DNA of 64,000 nt from NCBI GenBank assembly GCA_031835245.2, contig JAVKOQ020000083.1, positions 62,001-126,000 on the forward strand. The letters run 5' to 3'. This DNA is from Balamuthia mandrillaris. Lineage: Eukaryota. Positions 582 to 30,900 of the stretch are shown here, piece by piece (positions within the stretch are counted from its first letter, which is position 1; every line of letters starts with the position of its first letter). The translations under genes and the position numbers were made by a program. The notes below the pieces were generated by a model that ran no database searches, was not told the origin of the DNA, and saw only the letters and a program-made list of their open reading frames with translations.

Positions 582-3212
582 TTATTGGGGCAAATAAACG
601 GGGTGGTAAATTTGGTGAGGGACGAATTTGAGAGAAGACCGGGTGGTGTTGGGGATGCCAGCGGTGGTGGAGAGGGAGTGGCTGCGGGCAAGGGAATAGT
701 GGTTCGGAAGAGGTGGCGCCGGAGGAGCAGAGGACTGGTGAGGTTGGGCTTTAGATATCTGTACACAAGGTTGAGACTGAACATGAGAGCGAGCTTGTGG
801 AGGAAGAGCTTTAGTTGCTTGTACAAGAGATTGGGATGGAGCGTGAGAGTGATTTTGAGGAGGAACATTGGAGGGGTGAATATACGACTGAGTTTGTGCT
901 GAGGAAGAAGAAGGAGGAGGAGGAGAAGGAGAAGAAGAAGAAGAGGTTGCAGGAGGGGTGTGAGGGCGCTCACTAGAGGCGGTGTTTTGCTTCGTCTGGT
1001 CCTCCTCATCGTCTAGCACAATGGGGCTGGCAGGGCTTGGGATGGGCATGTGGTGGGATCGAGCAAAGGTGATGCGAGCCCCCGCCATGTTGAGGGAATG
1101 CACCAAACGGTCCAGCAGGGTGCGGTAGTAGTGCACTTCAGCATTTTTCTGAGCAAGAAGCTTCTCGTTGACCAAGGCGTTCACCTCCTTGTTTCTTTCC
1201 ATGGCGAGCATTGCTCGGAGGGTGGCGTTCTCCTGCTCTTTTTGCAGCAAAAGCTCTTTCTCAAACCCACTGCTGCCTTGCATGATTGTGCTGCACAGCT
1301 TGTCGTAGTTGGCACGCACTAACTTGAGCATCTCTTCCAGCTCCACGTTAGTCACACGAAGGTTGATGTTCTCTTCTTTCAGTTGCAGAATCTCTGCGCT
1401 CTTTGCAGCCTCGGACTGAAGATAGGAAAGATCTTTGGCATGCTCGGGAGGAAAGTGGCCATTTCCTGAGTCGTCACCCTGTTGACGGTGGTAGCTATGT
1501 TCAGAGGAAGAGGCCACATGGGTAGGCGTTGGAGTTGCACGCGCTGAAACACCACCGGATAACATCTGCGTAGGGGTCGCTATCCCTCTGGCAAGTTTCT
1601 GACGATGTGCAGTGGCGGGTTGGAAGCCTGCTGTAATCTGCTGGAAGTGGGATTGCGAGCCAAGACGAGCGGAGTGTCTGGGGGAAGAGAACCGGTGGGA
1701 AGAGAACCGGTACTTGGTCGGAGCTGGGCTGGGTTTGTTGTCCTGGGCTTTGCTGTTCCACATAGTGACAAGAGGTTGCATAGAAGAGGAACTATACAGA
1801 GGTGGAGACGAAGACACTTGTGGTGGAACTTCAGTTGTGGATGATACCAAAGTAGAGGAACAGAGACCAGTAGAAGGAACAGCGGTAGCAGCCGCCGCCG
1901 CAGAAGAAGAAGCAGAAGAAGAAGGTGATGATGATGTTGTAGAGGAAGAAAAAGACGAAGATGAAAAGGAAAGAGAAGGAGAAGAAGCAGAAGAAGAAGC
2001 AGAAAGTGATGATGGAGGAGGTTGAGAAAGTAAGGAAGACAGTGGTGGGGACTGACAGAACAAATCTAAGGATGCAGCCGAGGAATTCGATAAAGTGGAA
2101 GAAGATAAAGAATAAACTGAAGATGACGAAGGTGAGGATGAAGAGGGTGACGTAGATGTGGAAATAGATGAGGAGGGGAGAGAAGGTGGAGGAGAAGGAG
2201 CAAGTGCAACAGGAAGTTGCGCTGTTTGCGTTGGAGAAGGTGGAGCTGGGAATTGAACCATAGTGCTTGATGGAATAGGGTCAATTGGTAATTTCTTTTG
2301 GACCACAGCCTGCACTTCCTGTAGTTGCTGCAGCCAGCGACGCTTGCCCTCTTTCAACCGTTTTTGACTCTCTACAATAAACTGGGCCTTACGTGCCGAA
2401 GAGGGTTTGGTATTAGTTGCATTTGTGGTGCCCTCTTTATCAGCACTTTCCTCTGACACCATGTTATCAGTTGATACGGAGAGTTGTTGAGGTGGCTGTG
2501 CTTGGAGAGTTGGTGGTAGTTTATCAGGTAATTGGGTATCGGCCACAGGTTGGGGCGATCTTGGAAGTGGCGGTTTGCGATAATCAAGAACGAGGTCTTG
2601 TTGTATGGCTGACATTTGTTGGGCACTTGGTTGCGTTGCTGGTTTGGCCTCATCTGTGCAGTAGAAAGGCTGCGTAGAAGTGGAGAGAGGACGCTCAGGT
2701 TCTGCCATTTGAGTTATTATTCGTTCTGTTTCTGTTTCTGTTTCTGTTTCTGTTTCTGTTTCTGTTTGTTTTGAGGTGGTGGGCGTGTTGTTAATGGTAA
2801 TTGAAGAGGCTGGAGAAGTGGGACAAACATGAGCCTCTTTCTCATTTGTGGGGGCAGAGGAAGCTTCATCACGAGTTAAAGAGGCGGCTGTTGCTGATTG
2901 CAGAATTTTGGAAGTATCAGTGATGGGCGGATTAGCAATGGGGTTAGAAGATTGTGAGCTACGCTCTACGGTAGGGCTGGAAGTTGATGAATCAGAAGGA
3001 GGAGAAGATTGGGGTTTTTCGCTGCAGAGTGAAATGGGGGAGGAGTTATCGATAGAAGTCTTCTGGCCAGACGTGAGGGGTGAAAGTGACGGAGGTGCTT
3101 CGTAGAACAGTTTCCTTTTTCGGGTGGGCGCTACTGGCACCGTAGGTGCTGTAGGCACAGGCATGGCCAAAGAACCTTCGGTTGTCGAAGCGGCAGTTGT
3201 TCTCGTGGTTGT

Positions 3213-3248
<36 letters not shown>

Positions 3249-4463
3249 GGTTGCTCCAGTTACTGCAATCGTTGGTGCTGTTGCAGTTGTTGACGAAGGT
3301 TCTGTTGTGGCAGGAACAGATTTGGGAGCTGCATTTGTACCCAAGGAGGCTTTTCGTTGACTCTTCAACCGCAGCCTCTTTTTAGCATTGCGTTGGATTG
3401 CAGCACCCGCTTCTAGCTCGGAAAGTTCAAAATCATCTTGGTTTTTTTCCAAACGTTCAACCTCTTCTTTGCATTCTTTTTCCTCTTTAGCGCGAAGTAG
3501 TGTCTCTCGTTTTCTTTTCGGAGCCCTCAGGCTCTTTAATTTGCTTTTTGACCGCTTTTCTGGGGAAGAAGACCGTTTGCCATCACTCGACCTTTTCAAC
3601 ACCCTTCGACCCTCACTATCTTCCTGTGGTGAGGCATCTGTATCTGGAGGTTGCAACAGCGCTTTGTCAAAGAGGGTGCTTCCGCCGTATGGTGACAATA
3701 AACTCGCCTTTCTTTGAAGAAAAAGGTTCATCTCCAATAGTTTTCTCACTCCAAAGTCGAGCAAATTGGCGATGCGATGTTTAACTTCAGCTTTCCCATC
3801 AGGACTCCGGGTGTGGTAAAACATAGCGTTTGTACATGCCATTTTGAAGTGATGCTAGGCACAAGAAAGATCAGTTTATAAATAAGGCAGTCTTGAAACG
3901 CAAGAGAGAATATACCTCAAATAGTGGAATATTTCTATATTCATTCACCAGTAACATTTGCTTGATGGATTTATAATTGATGGGATTGGTAACGTAGTCC
4001 TTGTAGTCCTTCTGCTGACACGTTTGGCTTAGCAGCCTATCCGTGTCCTGTCTGCGTAGAGAGAAAGAGTGAAGAAAGGTGAGCATGCGAGCAAGGCTTC
4101 AATACCACGTGACGTACTTTGCAATCATTTCCATGTATTCCTTTAGCATCGCTCGCACTGATCGCGGCACATGTCAGTTTAGAAAGCAATAACAACATTG
4201 AGGGCAAGAATGATGTTTCTACTTACCCACGGCAGTGCATCTTGCGCAGTACCAGTTATTAGGAAAAGCTTGTCCAGGCCCAGCTCCAACACAAGAGAAG
4301 CAATACTCGGCAGGGCATAAGTCACAGCATATTATCTCTCCTCCGCCTCTGCACTTCCAGCAGGTATCTTTCCACGATTTAATATCCAAGTTCTCCAACT
4401 TTAACAAAGCGTAAAGAAAGAAGCAAACACGTGAAGGAGATAAACAGAGAGGAGAACATTAAT

Positions 4464-4500
<37 letters not shown>

Positions 4501-5289
4501 AGGCGAAGCATGAGAAGGAACAAACTTGAGTTTCATAGGCGGCGTAGGCAGCATGCGTGGCACGAATGAAGAGTTGATAAGCCTTCGGTTGACGTTTACT
4601 GAAGCTTCCTCTGCCTGGGTTCCGCTTTACGAATATCTTTGGCAACATAGGGAGCCTTGGATCATGGAAAGGCATGATATGCAACTCTCGCACCCAACCA
4701 CTGAAAAAATATGAACGTTAAGAAAAGACAAGAGGACAAGTTTAAATAGCGATACACGAGCTTACGTTTTGTCTTCTCCGAAAAAGTGGGTAAGCACTGA
4801 ATTGGGAGACGTAGGAGGAGGAATATCAAGCCGCTCCATGTCCACTTCGCACTCATCCAGCACCTAAACGAATATGCAAGAAGGACGGGTAGCAGTGTGT
4901 CAACATCCAGAAAAGAAAGAGGCATCTGGCAGCAAAACGTCTTTTTGACAAAAAGCAAAACGTACATAAGCGGGCCAATAGGGGTCCGTTCCAAACTTGG
5001 CCCAAACGACTTGACCAGCGACCCATGCTGGCTTGAAGCTGCATTCCTCCGCGCCTGCGGTGCTACCCAAGGAGGAGGATGTACCAGCGCTCATGTCCAC
5101 CACAAACTTACACGATCCGAACTCCGCGGCGGACTTCCTCGCAAACAACTGCTGCTTCAAGCTGGCTAATCAAGGTTGCAAAAGCGTGTAGTGCTACGTT
5201 CCGCTACGTAAATGAACCCGTGCCGCAACGCTCCCCTTTCTTTCTTTTTTTTTCGAGCGAGGCATGGAATTAAGGGGTCGGGTCGTCAT
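582..5289 (-). CDS. Multi-exon chromatin reader: PWWP + PHD finger + bromodomain, long low-complexity tail with coiled coil
   Basis: PWWP GQVVWAKFGTDPYWPA (~4970-5020); PHD CWKCRGGGEIICCDLCPAEYCFSC..WYCARC (4219-4407); bromodomain DYKDYVTNPINYKSIKQML / ACTNAMFYH (3800-4020); 1086-aa terminal ORF 582-3842. Start codon uncertain. Confidence 0.8.
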
Positions 5290-5367
5290 GAGAATATAGA
5301 AAGTGGATCCTGATGAGATCTGTCGTGTCGTCCTTGAAAAAAAAAAAGAAGAAGAAGGGAAGACAAA

Positions 5368-5815
5368 ATGAGCACTGCGGCGGCCGTACAGAGCACATCA
5401 ACTGAGGAGGAAGCACAGTGTGTTCAGCTTATTTTTAAGGCTTCTGCGGTTCCTTTCATATGTGGTCCGTATGTAGTATTGGAGCGGCAAACAATAGTGC
5501 AAATAGTGCAAGACACCGTCGGCCCAGCGCTCAAAAAGCGAGTAACAAGGAAACCACGGGATTTACCTCTCCGATTCTCAGTTGAGCTCAGCAGTGCCCT
5601 CCATCAACTGTTTTTCGGTGAGTTTGAGACCACCCTTTCTTCCTTGCAACAGATCGAGGAGATCTTTGGAGAGAATAGCTGCATCACCTATGAGCGTGGT
5701 TCTTATGCGAAGCTGCAGCCCCCTTTACATATCAAACGTCTGAAGAACAAAACAAAGTTCACCATATTTTATGCAGTGTACAATCGATCACATGTTCTCC
5801 AATGGCCCGAAGCAG
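5368..5815 (+). CDS. Hypothetical ~150-aa protein convergent with the RAG1-like gene (3' end unresolved)
   Basis: ATG in an A-rich context and 150 codons of normal complexity, then a likely splice donor G|GTACAA at 5816 leading into a CT-rich tract. No recognisable motif. Confidence 0.5.
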
Positions 5816-5819
5816 GTAC

Positions 5820-6326
5820 AAAATCCTTTCTTCTATCCTTTCTCCTCTCTCCTCTTATTCCTCTCTCTTCCTCTCTTTTCTTTTCGCTCCTCTTTCTCCT
5901 TGCTCTCTTCTGTCTCTTCTCTCTTCCTTTTCTCTCCTCTCTCTCCTATCTTCTTCTTTTCCTCTCTTCCTCTCTTCTTCTTCTTTCTCTTCTCTCTCCT
6001 TTCTCGTTTCTGCTTCTCTTCTATTCTCTCTTCTCTCCTGTCTTCTTCTTCCTCTCTTTTTCTCTTCCTCTCTTCCTCTCTTCCTCTTCCTTTCTCCTGT
6101 TTTCCTTTCTCCTGTTTTCCTCTCTCTTTTCTTCTCTCTTTTCTCTTGTGTTGGTCTTTGGTACTGATCTTTATTTTTCCTTTTCTTTACATCTCTTCTT
6201 CCTTTTCTTTCTCCTTCTCCACTTCTTCTTCTTTTTCTTCTTCTTCTTCTTTCTCTTCTTCTTCTTCTTCTTCTTTTTCTTTTTCTTCTTCTTTTTCTTC
6301 TTCTTCTTCTTCTTCTTCTTCTTCTT
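5820..6326. repeat. CT-rich low-complexity / (CTT)n tract
   Basis: Almost pure pyrimidine on +; encodes the poly-E tail of the minus-strand ORF. Confidence 0.9.
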
Positions 6327-8561
6327 GAAGCTGAGCTGAGCCAACATACTGCTGCATCTCTGGATGTAAACAAATATTCCGTGATGCCCAGTTGACATTG
6401 GGCTTCTGTGTTCGTTGCCTTTTCCGTTGAGGCTCAGGCAATGTCTTGTCGAAGAGGTACTTTTCTTGGCGGAAGGCAAAGGCTAGTTGTTGATAACATA
6501 CCTTCCTCTCTCCTTTTCTCCCTCCATATCCACTAGTTGGTGCTTTCTTGTTTCTGGAGTGGCGACTCTCGTCTGCATAGTTGGCGAACTTTTCCACCGA
6601 TCCGTACTTGTGCAAATAAAATCCAATGTGGTAAACAAAAACGTGTATGTATGGCGTTACCTCCTCTTCTCCATATCGCTTGCTAAACATGAAACCAAAC
6701 TCACGCGCCATCTTTAGCCATTCCTCCTCTGTTATTATGACTTGTGGCTGGGCAGCAAGGGTATAAAGTTTCGCAAACAGTTCCCATATTTCTTCTGTTT
6801 GTTGTGTCCTTGTCCCATCTCCCACTGACCTTCTTAGTGCTGCCATAAACAAAGCTCGTTGCTCGAGAATACGCAAATAGTCTGAACGGCCAAATCTTGC
6901 TTTCTTTACCCGTTGCTCCAAGGTTTTGACCTTCTTCTTCTTCTTGGTTTCTTTCGGTAACTTCATCTTCAACGTCTCAAAGCATTTCTCGAAGCCTTCA
7001 GCAAGGGGTGAATCGTTAGGTGCTTGCTCCATTAGCAGTTCCAACAGCTTGCGCATGACTCCCATGAAGCAGTGTAGCATGCAGGGGATGATGTGGTCAA
7101 GAAGAATGTTGATCAAAGGTTTGTTTTGCACCCCAAAGTGTTTCTGGGCAAAACGATCTTTTCCACTCTTAGATTCACACTTCTCTGCTTGCTCACCATC
7201 TCTCCACATTTCTGCTTCGTTTCGCAAGGGCCAGCACTCGATGGCAAAGTTCGCGATTGAATGCTTGTCAACGCAGCACCAAGGACACTTCCACTTCGAG
7301 TTTGGATGATAGCAACTGTAGAGTCCAAGCAAATGTACCAACGCTGCCATGTCGCACACAAGCACAGGCTCGAGAGCATACTCGGTACCGTTGGCACAAA
7401 TAGTTCCTCCGTTAGCAAGGTATTCTATCCCTTTCACTGCATTCTGTAGTTCCAGCTGTAGTGCTTCTCTGTCTTCCTCACCGAGGAAAATGAGATACTG
7501 GTGTGCGTTGTTTACAGACTTGGCTTTTGCTAACTCGAGGCCATCAAAAAGGAAGTTGAAGGTGCCGATCTCTTGCTTTTTCCGTTTGCCCTGGGTCATG
7601 GTGGCTCCATCAAAGGCAAACTTCACCAAGTGCTTTTGTCCTGGTTTGTTTTCTGGAGGAGGATTGTGTGCTAACACCCAGCTCATGTATTGCAAAAGGG
7701 GCAATTCGTAGCCATTCCCTCCGAGGGTTACTCTTGGTTCCATGGATTCCATAAGTGCTGCTTTTTGCTTGTTGAGGTGATGAATGGAGGTGGAGTCATC
7801 GAGGTTGAAAACAGACATGGTGTATCTCCAGTTCTTGTCTGTTATACCAACTGTTTCTTTGTAGGCAAGTAACACTGAAAGTGCAGGTTGGTGGCGTGGC
7901 TGTTGAAGCTCTTGAAATTCGCTAATATGCTCTTTCAGATAGTGGATCGTAGCTGGATCGCTTTTTACAAGCTCTCCAAGGGCCATCATGAATGATTGTT
8001 GGGGACAGAGACATCGCAACAAGGCCTTTGCTTGCTCTTTGAGGTACACTTCTTCCCTTTCTTTTTTGTTTTCTTCCAACACACTTTGCCAGTCTCTGTT
8101 GCTATCCATCGTTCCTTCATTTCCTCCAGCTCTTTTTTGCGTTGATACATGACGTTTTCTTGTCTCTTTTCTTCTTCTTTTTCTCGCTCCATTTGCAGGA
8201 AGGCTGTTGTGTGTCTCGAATCTTCGCACCGTTGGCAGTCCTCAGAGCAATTAACGTGGTCATCATGAAGCTCATGGGTTGAGCGGGTGCAAGCAACCTT
8301 GAACAGACGGATACATCCATTGGTATGTCGGCACTGAAAGAATGCTTCTGTTGGTTGTGCTTTGCCCTTTGTTTTGCCCTCCCAACGCAAGCAAGAGGGA
8401 CAACCAGCATCGCAACCATGATAGCGCTGCATTCTTTCATGTTTCCACATGGCTTTTGCAGAGGCATAGAGGACTCGTTGGCCATCTTTTCCGGTGTGAT
8501 GGCAGCGTTGGTGCTCGCACTCCCACTTTTTTTCTTGCCCTGCTTCTCCACTTCGCTCCAT
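6187..8561 (-). CDS. RAG1/Transib-like DDE transposase with N-terminal Cys/His repeats; one apparent 1-nt frameshift near 8111
   Basis: Collinear RAG1-core-like motifs: VKFAFDGA, LGEEDREAL, VCDMAALVHLLGL..KCPWC, GVQNKPLI..IPCMLHCFMG, VTPYIHVFVYH..KYGSVEKFANYADESRHS. ORFs 7986-8561 and 6187-8229 join (..EEMKER/MDSNRDW..) with one extra base. Confidence 0.8.
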
Positions 8562-8625: not shown

Positions 8626-8720
8626 GGCTCTAGTTTCTAACGACGTGAGAGGTGCTAGTGAACCACTCGCACTTTTTCCTTTTTTGTTGATCTAGATTCA
8701 CGTCGTTAGAAAGTGGATCC
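8626..8720. repeat. Back-to-back 22-bp CAC-initiated inverted repeat (candidate TIR or promoter motif)
   Basis: 8626-8647 reverse = CACGTCGTTAGAAACTAGAGCC; 8699-8720 = CACGTCGTTAGAAAGTGGATCC (19/22). The inner 14 bp TAGAAAGTGGATCC recurs at 5297-5310. Confidence 0.75.
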
Positions 8721-9140
8721 GTCCAAGTGTCCTGGAGCTTGCGATGTCGACAAAAAAAGAAAAATTGAGGAGTCATCACGGAATCAATTCTGGTACTTTT
8801 GGCGGGAAGCGTTCCGCAAAACAAAGAAAGGCCTTTTTGGCGGGAACGAACGCCGAGCGGATGCTCCTCAAGCGAACCAACAGCCAATCCCACCCAAAAC
8901 GGCTAATTACCGTTAACGTGCGCGCAACAAAAGCGGAAGGAGGGAAGAAAAAAAGAGGGGAGAGCCTGGTTTGGGGGATCATCAGTGTTTGCCGAGGGAA
9001 ACGCTTTGATGTTTTTGTGATCGATTTTTTTTTTCCAACGAACCACAGCAGAGAAGGAGTTTTTTGGTTGATCTGGAGAATTTTTTTTTTAAAAAAAACA
9101 AATCGGAAATAAAGAAAAGAAAAAACGAAAAGAGAAAACG

Positions 9141-10573: not shown

Positions 10574-11986
10574 TTAACATCGCAAACCACGTATGCAATA
10601 AAAACGAGAGAAGAAAAGAAGAGAGTGACGTACCAACGCCTGCTGCTGTTGTTCGATGGCAAGTAGCTTGGCGTGTTTCCGAGCAAGGTAAGCCTGCCGC
10701 CATTTCGGCACGTGGGCAATGAGACTGATGACAACCTCTATGAAGATGAGCCCGATGATGATCCACTCGAGGCGGTGGCTCTGGAACTTGTCCTTCTCGG
10801 ACTGCATGGTGTCGTAGATGCGGTTGAGCACCTCGAGCTGCTTCTCGAGGACGCGGAGGCGGCCCTGTAGGTCCAGGTAGCGACAAAACTGGCCCCATAT
10901 CATCTCCTGGCGGTCAAAGTCCCAAAAGATGTCGGGATGGAAGCTGAACTCGGCGTTGTTGATGTTGATGGTCATGAGGCCGACGAGGATGTTGCCCATG
11001 GTGCGGCCGACTTGGAGGGGCGGCATGACGGCCTTGCCGTGGGTGGCCAGCTCGTGGGGAAACTGCTGGGAGGAGGACCAGCTCTCCTCCAGCGTGGACT
11101 CGAAGAGGCCCAGCTTGACGCTCTGCCCGAGGGCGTAGGCCACGGGCAGCTTGACCTCCAGGCGGTCGCTCTCGAGGGTGATGGTGTCGCCAGAGGGTCC
11201 ACCCACGCCCGTCTTGTCCCCGTAGGTGAACTCGAACTCCTCCTCGTCGGGCGTTAAGTAGCGGGAGGGTCCCAGGCGGTACTCCGCCACACGCTCCAGG
11301 AAGCGGCTGTAGGCCTCCGAGGTGATGCCCCACGTCACGAAGCTGCCAAAGTTGAAGACGAAGATCTCCTCCCCAGCCCCGTTCTTCAGCTGCAACACGT
11401 TGCGGTGCGTGAAGCCCACCTTGAAGTCCAGGAAGGGCTCCTCCTGCAGGCTGCGCTGCAGGCTCTTCAGCGCGTAGCTCTGCGCCGTGCAGATGGCGAT
11501 GCATTTCTGCGGCATGAACTTGAACTTTTCATCCTGGTTCAGCTCGAAGCCCAGGGACTCCTCGAACTCTTGCTCCGCCTTGTCCCGCGTCTCCATCGGA
11601 GGTACTGGCACGTTGTTGTTGTGGTTGCTGCTCACTTTGGCGCCTTCCACGGAAGAGTGTTGTTGTGAGTAGCGCCTGACCGGTGAAGAGCGGCGGGGAG
11701 GTAAGAGGGGCAGCGTGCGAGATAAAGCGGGTGGTTGGTTGGCAGAGATGAAGAGAGGTTGGTGATGGAGGTTGCGCCGAGCAAAAGAGGGCAGAAGCAG
11801 CAAGCCCGTTCGGTTTGAGGACGAAAAGGATGAAAAAGCGGAGAAGAAAGAGAGTCGAACATTGTGGGATGTCCGTCTTACGGACCCACCACAAGGCCAC
11901 CAGTGCTGCTGGACCTTTGCGAAAAAACTTGGCGACGGCCGCCTCAGCGCCGAGGCCGACTCTGCAGCAGCCGGAACAAAGCTCAT
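10574..11986 (-). CDS. RMND1: RMND1/RMD1/Sif2 (DUF155) family protein with mitochondrial-type presequence
   Basis: CIAICTAQSY, IFVFNFGSFVTWG, YALGQSVKLGLFE, PDIFWD, YLDLQGRLRVL, SHRLEWIIIGLIFIEV. Likely start MSFVPAA at 11986; a small last exon probably lies below 10574. Confidence 0.85.
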   Translation of the reverse strand: MSFVPAAAESASALRRPSPSFFAKVQQHWWPCGGSVRRTSHNVRLSFFSAFSSFSSSNRTGLLLLPSFARRNLHHQPLFISANQPPALSRTLPLLPPRRSSPVRRYSQQHSSVEGAKVSSNHNNNVPVPPMETRDKAEQEFEESLGFELNQDEKFKFMPQKCIAICTAQSYALKSLQRSLQEEPFLDFKVGFTHRNVLQLKNGAGEEIFVFNFGSFVTWGITSEAYSRFLERVAEYRLGPSRYLTPDEEEFEFTYGDKTGVGGPSGDTITLESDRLEVKLPVAYALGQSVKLGLFESTLEESWSSSQQFPHELATHGKAVMPPLQVGRTMGNILVGLMTININNAEFSFHPDIFWDFDRQEMIWGQFCRYLDLQGRLRVLEKQLEVLNRIYDTMQSEKDKFQSHRLEWIIIGLIFIEVVISLIAHVPKWRQAYLARKHAKLLAIEQQQQALVRHSLLFFSRFYCIRGLRC

Positions 11987-12165: not shown

Positions 12166-14893
<2,728 letters not shown>

Positions 14894-15853: not shown

Positions 15854-16398
15854 TTATTTGCGAGTCAAAGGAAAAAAACATAAATCAATGTTTACAATAC
15901 AAACAATAAGGGTAAAGCATGAAGAATGAAACTCTAATGAGTGACGCCAAGTGGTATGTAAGTGGTTGAAAACTTTTAGACGACGAATCGCCCTCTCCAC
16001 TTCCACTCGTTCTGCTCCCAACAGCCGGTTAAACACTTGAGCCAACTCGCCCAAGCTTTGTCCTCGCTCTCTCTTGATGGGAGTAAAAAAACTTGGCTCG
16101 CCTCAGTAAGCAAGGTCGCCTAAAAGGATCTCACGAATGGAAAGGTAATTGAGAACGCCTTGACGAGCAATTGTGAGGTCATGTACTGAACCTGGAAAAG
16201 GGCCGTTGACCCAGGAAAAGAGCTCCGTCGCCAAGTCCCACACGAGTTCGTATTTGACTGTGTGCTGCTTTTTTTTGCCAGAATAAAATGTACGTTGAGT
16301 GTTGGCATTCATAGAACGCTGAACAGGACACTCTGTAGTGTCTATGATGCCTGTGACTAAAGGTCGGTGGAGAACTTGGCCGTGACACCGATCAAAGT
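15854..16398 (-). pseudogene. PIF/Harbinger-ISL2EU type transposase (DDE_Tnp_4), truncated, internal stop at ~16103
   Basis: GIIDTTECPVQR, YSGKKKQHTVKYE, GPFPGSVHD, LLGDLAY*GE, FNRLLGAERVEVERAIRRLKVF. Confidence 0.85.
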
Positions 16399-17891
16399 GC
16401 TTTACAAGCAAAAAAAAAAAAAAAATGAAAAAAAATGAAAAAGAAAAAACAAGAAAAAAGATTAGAGCAAGGAAAGAAGAATGACAGTAAAGAGAAAAAG
16501 AAAAGAAGAAAGAAAAAAATGGAGAAACAAGAAGAAGTACAACAACAAAAAGAAAGAGCAAAAGTGAAAAGGAGAGAGAGAAAGGGAGAGGAGGAGAGGG
16601 AAGGGGAAGTAATAAAAAACCTTGAACATAGTGACGAGTGGTTCCAATAATGCTTCAACGACATGATGAACCCAAAATCGAAATGGAAAGAACTAGAAAA
16701 ACAGATGAAGCCAAAAAAAAAAGGTAATGGTAGTTGCTCTTTGCCTTTAAGTGCTCTTGCTAACAACTTTTGTTTACAAGCACCCCCACCCTCAACCTCC
16801 GTGATTAATGACCTTTTTGCGTTGAGAAACAACACAAGACGAACTGCTGAGCCTTTCTTAGTTCAGGAAGCAGAAGAAGCAATGGGCTTTTCTGAAGAGG
16901 AGGAAAAGGAAGAAGAAGAGGAAGAAGAAGAAGAACCGCCTGAGCCACAATACTAAAAGGTGGCTGTACAGCAACCAAACAACACTCATCACACTTCACC
17001 AACACAAAGGCTCAAGCGCAAACGCCTTTCTTCTTCATCACCACTACCACATCAACTCACTCCATCACCACAACAAGACATCTGGTTTTGGCGTGCTCAG
17101 ATGACTGATGCTGTGGTCTTGGTTCTGCGAAATCTTCCAGGCTACCGGGCGGAAGTAAAATGAGATGAAACCGACCAAAACAAAATATGGGTGATCATCA
17201 AAAGGCTTCCATTGTTGGAAGTTGAACTGCAGGCCATATTTTCTGCGATGCAACTGCATGGTGTTGGGCAAGATGCATGGCGGTCAGCGAACCAAGCTAA
17301 GACCTTTCAATTTCCTCTTATATTTTCAAATAGGTTAGAATGGTCATCTACATGGCATATGATAGAGAAAGGAGGATTTTATTTTTGGACCATTCCCTTT
17401 CAACTTGATAACAATGAAGAAGAAAGTGTGCAAGTGTTTTAAATAAAATAAAAACACATTTAAAGTGAGTAGAATAAACTCTCGTTCCCTCAGGTCTAAT
17501 TATTGCAGTAGAAAGAATAAAAAATTTACTAACTTTGTGGGTCATGAATTTGCTATGTTCATATTTGTGGCTTGTGAGGTATTTTGTGGTTTGTGTGGTT
17601 TGTAATTTTAGAAAAAGGTACACCATTTCTTCAGTTTTGTAGCAACCAATTGGAGTTTATAAAAAAACTCCACACCAATAAAAACGTGCCAACAAATACT
17701 ACAAACTGAGCCACAAACTACATGATTCTTGAATTTGTGGTTTGTAGTTTTGTTTGTGGTTTGTTTGTGGTTTGTGATTTTGCTATGTTTCTTTTTGGTT
17801 TTTTGATAATAATCACAATTGTAACGATAATTTTATTTTTTGCCTTTTTTTTGTTGACTTATTACTTCCAAGCCAACAAGCCTTTGTTACT

Positions 17892-28070: not shown

Positions 28071-29059
28071 TCACAGACCCATTTTGCTCGAGGTACCAGC
28101 TGCTGCCACTGCTACAGCTCGAAGATACAGTAGCACAGCCTCCGAACGCCATCCTCCCACCGCCTGAATGGTCGAAATCTGCATACCCACAGACGCCATG
28201 GCAGTAGCTCCTCCAATTCGAAGGCTATGGCCTCCTAACAGCAGTCCTTTCCAGCCCGTCTTGTCCGCCATTAGGCGAACGATGTCCCGAACCTTGTCCG
28301 TGTTCAGTCTCGCTCCGCTAGCATCGCTGAACAGAGGACCCGGGGCATCGCCTCGGACCTCCAAGTAGCGCCGAATTATGGTCACAGGGTCAGTAGGAGA
28401 CCTGACTGACGCTTCCACTGGTATGGCGTCCCTCAAGGACGCCTTCACCGTCTTAGACTCCTTCCCCTGAATCCAAAACATACCTCCCGTGGCGTCCTAC
28501 GAAACGTCCGTCCTGTCCAATTTGCAAGGTCCCCGCCACGGAGCATAGTGCGCAGCCCCACTACCACAAGGGCCGCATGGTGCCGCCACTCCCACTCTGA
28601 AACACCCACTGGACAGGCGACCAGCCACTGCGCCAGAATCTCCACCAGGAATGGCGCCCTACGACGGGCAAAGCCCTTTGCCAGCCTGACCTCTCTCTTG
28701 ATGCCACGGACCAGCAACATAACTGCGTTATTGCTGGTAGGGTTGGGCCAAGAGAGATCCTCGTGAAGCTGGGAGATAGCCGAACGAGCCACGTCCACAC
28801 TTCCCCCCCTGCCTGCCAAGAACACGGCCACCAAAAACCGTGACACCAGATTAGGAGATGCTGGCAACGGTTGAGCCACCTGCATGTCCCAACAGAAATC
28901 AAAGAACATGGCCACCCAGCGCTCATATCTGCGCCAAGTGTCAGGCATCCTGGCCTCCCGGATGAGAGCTCCACCCACGTCCGTCAAGTAGCGATCCACC
29001 TCCGCGCCATTGACGGCCTTCCTCTCAACCCGTCCACATGTGCCATCCAAAAAGACCAA
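28071..29059 (-). pseudogene. Tyrosine recombinase of the PAT-like element (frameshift at ~28500)
   Basis: LRTMLRGGDL (catalytic R), GHSLRIGGAT (HxxR), GGWRSEAVLLYLR (W, Y). Confidence 0.9.
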
Positions 29060-30900
29060 CTGTCATTTCCCCAAGCCTCCACCTGGCCTGAGGGGCCGGG
29101 GGGAAAATCCTCGGCCGTCATTACAAAGTGGTCCACCATCAACTCCAGCAGCTGCAGCCACCAAGGTTGTCCAGTCCACACCGGAACTACAATAGAAGCT
29201 CTTGCCCCATGCTCTAAGACCAGCTGAAGCACCATCGGGAGGAGAGCAAAAGGGCATGCAACGTAATTGACCTCGCCGGACCAGTTCTGCACCAGTGCAT
29301 CCACACCCTCCCCACCACCACCGAAATTCACGCAATTGAACCTGCTCAGCTTCATATTGTCTCTTGAGGCAAACCTGTCTATCATATGGGGTCCCCAGCA
29401 AGCCTCTGCCTCCGAAAATGCTCTGCCGGAGACGGTCCAGTCCCCCACAGCTATCGCCCTGCTGTCGAGATCTGCCAGCCAATTCTCGTCCGATGGCACC
29501 CACACTGCCTCGTGGATGACCACCTTGAAATCGAACGTCAGCAGCCAAAGCTTCTGGGCCTCCAGCCAGAGCTCGGGAACTCTTCCTGCTCCACGCTCGA
29601 TGTACGACCGCGCCACCTGGCTGTCCACCTGAATGCGAACAGTGTGGCCTTCCAAGAGATCACTGCACGCCTTCAACACCTTCCGTGCTGCAATCACCTC
29701 CAACACGTTGATGTGCTTGCCCAGATGCTTGGCCGACCAAGTGCCACCCACCGTCCTGCCCAGGCAACACCCGCCCCAGCCCAAGAGGGATGCATCCGGA
29801 GCCACCCAAGTGATCCTCTCTGGCCTCCACAGGGGCCATCCATTGTACTTGTTGAAGTTGCGAACAATCCACTCTAAACGGTTCACTGCCAGCTCGCTCA
29901 GCAATACTTCCATGTCCCACGCCCATGCAGGGCGGTCAGCAATAACGTCATACCATGGCCTGGCGACCCAACAGGCCAGCCCGAAGCCCCTCTTCACGGA
30001 AATCACCCGACCAGCCAATCTCGCCAACTTCTTGACTGGGACCCTTCCACCTGAGACCCCCTGTTGGCGCAACAGCCGTTTTGCACCCACAAGGATCCGC
30101 TTCCGTTTGTTTGAAGGAACAAAGCATACCCCCAAGATGGTATCTATTCCCATGCCCAAGACAATGCCCCATTGCGTTGGTTTCCACTTGGTTTTTTCTG
30201 AAGGAACAAGGCCCAGCCAGTCAATGTCTCTTCTGACGTCCACTATTGCTGGATCCAACTTCGGAACTGTCTCTTCTGCCAACATAAAGTCGTCCACGTA
30301 GACGCTTGCGACTTTGCCCTCCCAGCACCACTTGGCCACTGGGACTCTCGTTGTCTTGGTGAATGTCCAAGGGGAGAGGGTACAGCTGAATGTTAGCACC
30401 CAGTACTCGTAGTATTTCCCTTCCCAGATGAACCCTTGGTACCGCTGAGACTCTGGAGTGACCCACACATGCTGGTAGCCCGCCTCCAAGTCGATCGTGA
30501 TGAACCACCACCCTCTTTCTATCATACGAATGAATTTGTCCAACGTATCCAACTTGCTCCTTTGTTTTGGCAGGAAGTTGTTGACCTTGATCATATTGAT
30601 CACCATTCAATACTTCTTCAGGCCTTTCTTTGGGGCACAACGCACTGGAGAAACTGCCAATGGAGGAAAGCGAGGCATGTCCACAATCCTGTTTGTTGAC
30701 AGCTGAGCTACCTTGTTCCACAAGAACTGATGTTCCTCCTTGTTCCTCACTGTGTTTTGTGCTCACCTTGGCAGCTGTCCTGGCTGAGGCTGAATGACTG
30801 CCCTGTCCTGGATCCAACTCAGCACCAATGCAGGGGCTCCAAAGGCCACCCAGACATCCAGGCGCTGATGAATACACCCCACCACCGACTCCAAACCAGG
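28984..30900 (-). CDS. RT-RNase H-adenine methyltransferase-like ORF of the PAT-like element (5' part frameshifted)
   Basis: IDLEAGYQH, VYVDDF, PDASLLGWGG, HINVLE, QVDSQVA, NWLADLDSR, then WGPHMIDRFAS..VDALVQNW..VVPVWTGQPWW. Confidence 0.9.

What the first reader, a model, noticed from the sequence alone, without database searches (positions are those of the whole stretch)
6187..8229. RAG1-core-like recombinase with intact DDE triad and zinc ligands in an amoeba
Seen motifs line up in order with the RAG1 core as I recall it: VKFAFDGA ~ VKESCDGM (D600; codon 7609-7611); GEEDREAL ~ DESDHETL; CDMAALVHLLGL..CPWC ~ YDEKLVREVEGL..CTLC (D708, C727/C730; codon 7351-7353); GVQNKPLI..MLHCFMG ~ GVSAKPFI..ALHCDIG; TPYIHVFVYH..GSVEKFANYADES ~ TNYFHKTLAH..GSIGAWASEGNES (H937/H942, E962; codon 6568-6570). 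The core is an uninterrupted ORF in gene-dense DNA, unlike the decayed TEs nearby, which suggests recent activity or domestication. Whether it is closer to RAG1L, Transib or another related DDE clade cannot be decided by eye.
Basis: partly seen in the sequence, partly recalled or inferred. Interest (0 to 1): 0.82.

Follow-up and report, generated by a model that had tools for sequence, protein, structure and literature searches.

The report
RAG1-fold amoeba transposon, non-RAG2 partner
A likely young jumping gene of the amoeba Balamuthia encodes a DNA-cutting enzyme predicted to fold like RAG1, the enzyme that shuffles antibody genes, and faces it with a small conserved gene unrelated to RAG2, whose likely RNA runs spliced and backwards across the enzyme gene and would help keep it in check.

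Summary
Observation confirmed; interpretation partly supported. The three acidic codons and four zinc ligands are at the stated places and conserved across relatives. The predicted core matches RAG1 (Z 25.0) and BbRAG1L (24.3) far better than HzTransib (14.9). These motifs, however, are shared by the whole CMCT transposase clade, so they do not make it a RAG1L.

It is not a lone or domesticated gene. It is a roughly 3.4-kb, likely multicopy transposon of Balamuthia mandrillaris with:
- a CAC left end shared with environmental relatives;
- two C2H2-type fingers, cut off from the core by a 2-nt frameshift in this copy;
- a conserved, convergent 150-aa gene, present in 5 of 7 related elements.

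That gene sits where RAG2 sits in ProtoRAG but is a mixed alpha/beta protein with no fold match. Two runs show a spliced + strand RNA across the whole transposase gene. RAG1L's C-terminal zinc motif and RING are absent. The right end, target duplication, phylogenetic position and partner binding are untested or unresolved. The scan has noted other RAG1-fold two-gene protist elements on other DNA, with no sequence overlap. Verdict: an apparently undescribed lineage of a known clade.

The parts
8710..8729 (-). Left terminus of the element, beginning CAC
   Evidence: 18 of 20 nt identical to the left end of locus L002 and 12 of 16 to L001; the 2429-nt contig of run X1 ends exactly at 8729
8634..8712 (.). 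Subterminal inverted repeat, 15-nt perfect arms at 8698-8712 and 8634-8648
   Evidence: arms of 6, 9 and 13 nt lie in the same zone of L001, L002 and L004
8095..8561 (-). N-terminal part of the transposase: two Cys/His modules (about 8391-8519 and 8226-8333) and a charged stretch
   Evidence: profile hits YY1 (E 4.1e-5) and GLI (E 3e-4) C2H2 fingers
8092..8097 (-). Two extra nucleotides relative to four of five annotated copies; they put the finger module out of frame with the core
   Evidence: contigs of X1 and X2 span the site with no gap, so it is not an error of this assembly alone
6187..8109 (-). Transposase core with RAG1-type fold: D 7609-7611, D 7351-7353, E 6568-6570; Cys 7285-7287 and 7276-7278; His 7072-7074, 6643-6645 and 6628-6630; poly-Glu tail at about 6190-6325
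5368..5815 (+). ORF2, the convergent partner gene: conserved part of about 150 aa, mixed alpha/beta, no known family or fold match
5816..6330 (+). Inferred first intron of the ORF2 transcript (pyrimidine tract)
   Evidence: donor and acceptor in the sequence agree with NCBI model P0163; not checked with reads
6340..8558 (+). Spliced RNA antisense to the transposase gene; likely the 3' part of the ORF2 mRNA
   Evidence: 10 joints in runs X2 and X5, none in X1; all 10 are canonical on + (9 GT-AG, 1 GC-AG) and none on -
5297..5310 (.). 14-nt copy of the left subterminal sequence (8707-8720) upstream of ORF2; likely marks the right-end region. No CAC terminus found beside it
   Evidence: 0 of 1000 random 268-nt windows share a 14-mer with the left end

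Best explanation
This is a likely young, multicopy cut-and-paste DNA transposon of Balamuthia whose transposase is predicted to have the RAG1 fold and which carries a conserved, convergent second gene unrelated to RAG2, likely an accessory or regulatory factor. Shown: the DDE and zinc residues, the CAC left end, the conserved gene pair, and spliced + strand RNA over the transposase gene. Inferred from RAG1 and Transib chemistry (recalled): the enzyme would bind the CAC ends, with the C2H2 fingers reading the subterminal repeats, cut by nicking and hairpin formation, and insert elsewhere. Inferred for ORF2: its mRNA reads through the transposase gene in antisense and would damp sense expression. 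Its protein most likely acts on transposition itself. My odds for it: cofactor on transposase or ends 0.4, counter-silencing or other regulator 0.35, passenger 0.25. This copy probably cannot make full-length enzyme and would need another copy to move it, if its right end still works.
For: Fold: Foldseek RAG1 E 7.6e-16, BbRAG1L 4.6e-11, HzTransib 9.6e-11 to 1.7e-7, P element 4.5e-4. VIA Z 25.0 (rmsd 4.1, 453 aligned), 24.3, 14.9, 12.7. ESM Atlas top three hits are RAG1 clusters, score 0.96-0.97. Mobility: five accessions in the 90% cluster of one annotation, plus two ORF2 accessions not adjacent to them; the X1 contig stops exactly at the CAC; the left end is conserved in L001 and L002, and L002 has an 11-of-12 inverted copy at its right end. 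Partner: window ORF2 finds convergent homologs in 6 of 11 loci, which are 5 of 7 distinct elements; synonymous sites are saturated (pS 0.75-0.83) against pN 0.32-0.50; its four database homologs are the Balamuthia model and three matching ORF2 of L001, L002 and L004. Antisense RNA; NCBI model P0163 joins ORF2 to antisense exons.
Against: No right terminus or target duplication was found in the window. The flanks of L002 and L004 give no duplication either. Five accessions could be alleles on homologous contigs of a complex genome (10.1101/2025.02.25.640156, passages), and the accession test with neighbouring genes failed. Two of seven related elements, both fragmented, lack ORF2. RNA strand rests on intron direction in contigs, and X5 is labelled DNA by guess. 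Raw-read run X16 (about 3% read) gave 2 partial reads. No Pfam transposase or RAG1 family hits any of 110 members. ORF2 function has no direct evidence.
Confidence: 0.75

Rival explanations
1. It is a true RAG-like (RAGL) transposon: the transposase falls inside the RAG1L clade and RAG2L was lost or replaced by ORF2.
For: Fold and Atlas features are nearest RAG1 and RAG1L. The second-Asp-to-Glu distance is 260, near RAG1's 253 and above Transib's 206-214 (PMC1131882). The layout is convergent, and the left end fits the first five letters of the protostome RAGL consensus (PMC7204232).
Against: Structural identity is only 11-15%, against an average 36.75% among RAG1L cores (PMC9435367). The CTT1 zinc motif and a RING pattern are in 0 of 162 stored proteins, many of them fragments. 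The N-terminus is C2H2. There is no kelch gene.
Confidence: 0.08
2. It is a domesticated single-locus host gene; the copies are alleles and the antisense RNA belongs to a host gene.
For: The core is uninterrupted and lies between host-type genes. No right end or duplication was found.
Against: This copy has a frameshift, and each of the five annotated models shows a gap or frame irregularity against the window. The terminus is conserved, and the contig break falls at it. The same gene pair occurs in unrelated environmental contigs.
Confidence: 0.07
3. It belongs to another, already named CMCT lineage (EnSpm, Chapaev, Mirage, Plavaka, ESTA, Lanisha) and resembles RAG1 only because RAG1 is the solved member.
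For: The Cys and His motifs and CA..TG ends are common to all of these, and ESTA was also recognised through RAG1. Two of four left ends begin CACTG. 17 of 30 Atlas hits are unnamed clusters.
Against: The Atlas list shows RAG1 families on top and no EnSpm or Plavaka family. None of six flanks ends in TA. The N-terminus matches C2H2 fingers, and no RING pattern was found.
Confidence: 0.1

Closest known systems
RAG1 core (PDB 4wwx, 6dbi, 6cg0) and ProtoRAG BbRAG1L (6b40)
   Same: Whole-core fold (Z 24-25, about 455 residues aligned), DDE, Cys2 and His2 zinc ligands, long insertion domain; convergent two-gene layout and CAC end as in ProtoRAG
   Different: 11-15% identity; the partner is a 150-aa alpha/beta protein, not a kelch propeller; C2H2 fingers instead of RING; no CTT1 motif; no target duplication shown
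Transib (HzTransib 6pqx, 6pqn; Subgroups I and II of Tao et al. 2022, PMC9435367)
   Same: Fold (Z 14.9), DDE, CAC termini
   Different: Second gene present; longer Asp-Glu spacing (243-318 in 15 of 16 rows against 206-214); lacks the CTT1 motif of Subgroup I; N-terminal fingers
AanRAGL of Aureococcus (PMC9435367)
   Same: RAG1-related two-gene transposon in a protist, with short asymmetric ends
   Different: There the second gene is a RAG2L in tandem orientation; here it is unrelated and convergent
[quoted passage not shown]
   Same: C(2)C and H(3-4)H motifs, DDE, CA..TG ends; Tet/JBP-like cargo in two related loci (weak hits)
   Different: No match to a named lineage was found; the C2H2 module and ORF2 did not appear in the passages read

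Membership tests
CMCT clade | [quoted passage not shown] | tested here: met
   definition
CMCT clade | CA..TG termini | tested here: met
   CAC at four left ends; right ends in L002 (11 of 12 match) and L004 (8 of 12, weaker); window right end not found
CMCT clade | 2-5 bp target site duplication | tested here: inconclusive
   no duplication in L002 or L004, whose flanks may come from different copies; no right end in the window
RAGL transposon (RAG1L + RAG2L) | RAG1-type core fold with catalytic and zinc residues | tested here: met
   residue-level superposition of the two Asp was not available
RAGL transposon (RAG1L + RAG2L) | Second gene in convergent orientation | tested here: met
   in L001 the two stop codons lie about a dozen bases apart
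RAGL transposon (RAG1L + RAG2L) | Second gene encodes a six-bladed kelch propeller | tested here: not met
   ORF2 homologs end after about 140-160 aa; the model (pLDDT 82.9) has four helices and mixed strands
RAGL transposon (RAG1L + RAG2L) | CTT1 (CTT*) zinc motif Cx2Cx3GHx4C at the C-terminus | tested here: not met
   absent from the complete window protein and from 0 of 162 stored proteins matched; motif
RAGL transposon (RAG1L + RAG2L) | 5-bp target duplication | tested here: inconclusive
RAGL transposon (RAG1L + RAG2L) | Phylogenetic position inside the RAG1L clade | not testable with these tools
   no RAG1L or Transib sequence came back as a stored protein; the tree holds family members only
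Transib (strict) | Second Asp to Glu spacing of 206-214 aa | tested here: not met
   260 here; 243-318 in 15 of the 16 rows with all three residues, one 698; range
Transib (strict) | Single transposase gene without extra domains | tested here: not met
   second gene and C2H2 module; definition
Transib (strict) | RSS-like heptamer-spacer-nonamer ends | tested here: inconclusive
   the first three bases match; no conserved second block across four left ends by eye
ESTA | TA target duplication | tested here: not met
   0 of 6 flanks end in TA; rests on my placing of the termini
Chapaev | Chapa domain, with RING in two subgroups | tested here: inconclusive
   no RING pattern; N-terminus matches C2H2 fingers; no Chapa profile was available
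EnSpm/CACTA and Plavaka | Sequence similarity to their transposase domains | tested here: inconclusive
   no such family among Pfam hits of 110 members or among listed Atlas sets
Domesticated host gene | Single copy, intact frame, no transposon ends | tested here: not met
   frameshift, CAC end, five near-identical accessions

The most novel reading that the evidence does not exclude
A third branch beside RAG1L and Transib, centred on Amoebozoa, in which a 150-aa protein of new fold occupies the RAG2 slot and is the transposase's obligate cofactor. The convergent two-subunit design of the V(D)J recombinase would then have arisen twice with different partners, here coupled to built-in antisense control.
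Probability: 0.25. Interest if true: 0.85.

Novelty: new variant of a known kind. Interest (0 to 1): 0.6.

Why it matters
How a RAG1-type transposase came to need RAG2 is an open question, and the protist examples in the papers I read are few. This family keeps the long RAG1-like core yet pairs it with a different small gene in the ProtoRAG position. That makes it testable whether such cores work alone or recruit partners repeatedly. It is large (570 clusters at 50% identity), has named members in three amoebozoans, and is mis-annotated as myosin-like or caldesmon in NCBI. ORF2 may be a new fold.

Tried and rejected
Single-sequence Pfam and PDB searches of the core gave nothing. Pfam on 110 and on 36 members gave no RAG1 or transposase family. 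No relatives were confirmed in viral contigs (0 of 8 pattern matches) or prokaryote genomes (0 of 24).

ORF2 had no significant match in Pfam, PDB sequences, ESM Atlas (best 0.75), Foldseek PDB or viral (0 at E 0.001), or VIA (best Z 4.2). This does not prove a new fold. Complex prediction of transposase with ORF2 was not available, so there is no verdict.

Repeat and terminus searches found no right end or duplication in the window, nor clear ends in L003, L009 or L010.

Sequencing error as the cause of the frameshift was rejected. An intron that restores the frame was considered: no such joint appears in X2, whose contig spans the site. Telling alleles from dispersed copies by neighbouring accessions failed, as 0 of 6 window proteins were in the collection. 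No whole genome was held.

No RNA holder was on record; X16 gave 2 partial reads. The first tree did not finish. The FastTree of 29 rows has long-branch warnings and no outside references, so I use it only to say that Balamuthia holds two separate subfamilies.

Literature: RAG1 + Transib + Balamuthia gave 0 papers. The listings showed no description of this element. Term searches of two supplements found no amoeba names, but 5 of 21 pages of one PDF are pictures, and Repbase was not searchable.

Full report
Observation. The nearest named protein is a 782-aa Balamuthia mandrillaris model at 98% identity, labelled myosin-like, so the window most likely comes from that amoeba.

The core is a RAG1-type transposase. 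Single-sequence searches found nothing, but 570 clusters at 50% identity are related at E 0.001 or better. In an alignment of the window core with 109 relatives, chosen for length and score, the DDE residues, both Cys and three His are among the most conserved columns. A profile of 36 long members finds BbRAG1L at E 5.2e-6 and RAG1 at E 0.14-0.27, and aligns the Cys pair, His pair and Glu. The model (pLDDT 90.8) matches RAG1 at Z 25.0 (rmsd 4.1, 453 aligned), BbRAG1L at 24.3, HzTransib at 14.9, P at 12.7, ISCth4 at 9.2 and Hermes at 8.6. Foldseek gives the same order for RAG1, BbRAG1L, HzTransib and P. In the ESM Atlas the top three of 30 hits are RAG1 clusters, and 17 are unnamed.

Limits of that match. 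Only RAG1, RAG1L and Transib are solved, as far as I recall, so any member would hit them. The Asp-Glu spacing (260) is RAG1-like and not Transib-like. But identity to RAG1 is 11-15%, and the CTT1 motif and a RING pattern are in 0 of 162 stored proteins. No tree with reference sequences could be built, so the position within the clade is open.

The gene is longer than reported, and broken in this copy. An overlapping frame from ATG 8561 encodes two Cys/His modules that match C2H2 fingers. The module is in 16 of 27 selected proteins scanned. Four of five annotated Balamuthia copies read through from fingers to core; the window and one copy (P0011) have two extra bases at about 8095. Contigs of X1 and X2 carry the window's form without gaps; X1 may be the window's own source.

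It is a transposon. The sequence from 8729 inward begins CAC and is 18 of 20 identical to the left end of L002 and 12 of 16 to L001. The X1 contig covering the gene ends exactly at 8729. That is what a de Bruijn assembly gives when copies have different flanks (inference). L002 carries an inverted copy of its left end (11 of 12) about 100 nt before ORF2. Five accessions share the 90% cluster, and two ORF2 accessions are adjacent to none of them. The window differs from X1, X2 and X5 at two bases. Against this, the right end and a target duplication were not found, and alleles on homologous contigs are not excluded. A 14-mer of the left end recurs at 5297-5310, and 0 of 1000 random windows reach that length; it likely marks the right-end region.

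The partner gene. ORF2 (5368-5815, +) faces the transposase tail to tail. The window protein finds convergent homologs in 6 of 11 metagenome loci (E 4e-6 to 2e-21). The 11 loci are 7 distinct elements: 5 have ORF2, and the 2 without are fragmented remnants. Synonymous sites are saturated while replacements are not, so it is a selected protein gene. It folds with pLDDT 82.9 into a mixed alpha/beta domain. This is not a kelch propeller, the defining form of RAG2 (PMC7204232, passages). No family or fold match was found. Binding to the transposase is untested.

Antisense RNA. Runs X2 and X5 show 10 joints within 6340-8558 and X1 shows none. All 10 are canonical introns on the + strand and none on the - strand, with alternative donors at two introns. 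One X5 contig strings five exons together, and X5 has no depth in three bins that fall in introns. Contigs show presence only, the strand is inferred from intron direction, and X5 is labelled DNA by guess. NCBI model P0163 joins ORF2 to these exons. X16 raw reads gave 2 partial reads.

Distribution. Of 19 transposase clusters looked up or named, the named members are Balamuthia (5 clusters, two subfamilies), Planoprotostelium and Heterostelium, plus a distant Rhizophagus protein. The rest are unnamed assemblies. No viral or prokaryote relative was confirmed.

Mechanism. Shown: catalytic and zinc residues, left end, gene pair, spliced + strand RNA. Inferred from RAG1 and Transib chemistry (recalled): end binding, nick-and-hairpin cleavage at CAC, strand transfer. 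Inferred: the fingers read the subterminal repeats, the ORF2 mRNA damps the transposase by antisense overlap, and the ORF2 protein acts on transposition. This copy is probably non-autonomous.

What is known. Tao 2022 (PMC9435367: whole main text, supplement parts 1 and 22 of 25, term searches) reports a RAG1L-RAG2L transposon in Aureococcus and RAG1L fragments in other protists. The supplement's picture pages could not be read and may list amoebae. PMC1131882, PMC4411706, PMC7204232, PMC12730594 and two bioRxiv preprints were read as passages only. Eight literature searches showed no description of this element. Earlier notes of this scan describe RAG1-fold multi-gene elements in Naegleria and marine protists; sequence look-ups found no related overlap with them, and I did not test them.

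Verdict. A real, apparently undescribed lineage of RAG1-fold CMCT transposons with a ProtoRAG-like layout and a non-RAG2 partner. It works like RAG1 or Transib by inference, but fails membership tests for RAGL and for strict Transib. New variant of a known kind; interest 0.6.

Noticed in passing
L003:6658-7026 (-) and L001:3212-4111 (+): Tet/JBP-like ORFs lie just beyond ORF2 in two related elements (Pfam PF12851, E 0.0011 and 0.043, both under the curated cut-off). The Balamuthia copy has none. Some family members may carry a base-modifying third gene.
   Followed up: partly
proteins P0016, P0084, P0089: Family members with an added Ulp1 protease (E 8.9e-19), SAP (E 6.6e-6) or SWIM (E 0.0014) domain.
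   Followed up: no
L001:768 and L002:727: The finger module and the core are also in separate frames in these two elements, about 20 codons downstream of the window's break; probably an intron there.
   Followed up: no
window 4966-5094 (-) and 582-3842 (-): Host gene with a PWWP-like start (E 0.0077) lies head to head with ORF2 and limits where the right end can be.
   Followed up: partly
window 16106-16654 (-), 28987-30606 (-), 39304-40194 (+): A DDE_Tnp_4 transposase fragment and two reverse transcriptase ORFs.
   Followed up: no
window 10577-11986 (-) and 12314-12955 (-): Ordinary host genes: RMND1/DUF155 and an NAD-binding oxidoreductase exon.
   Followed up: no
window 6850-6829 region (-): Three annotated copies (P0003 twice, P0013) lack seven residues here, at a 21-nt GT..AG stretch; either a deletion or a model skipping a lesion.
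   Followed up: partly
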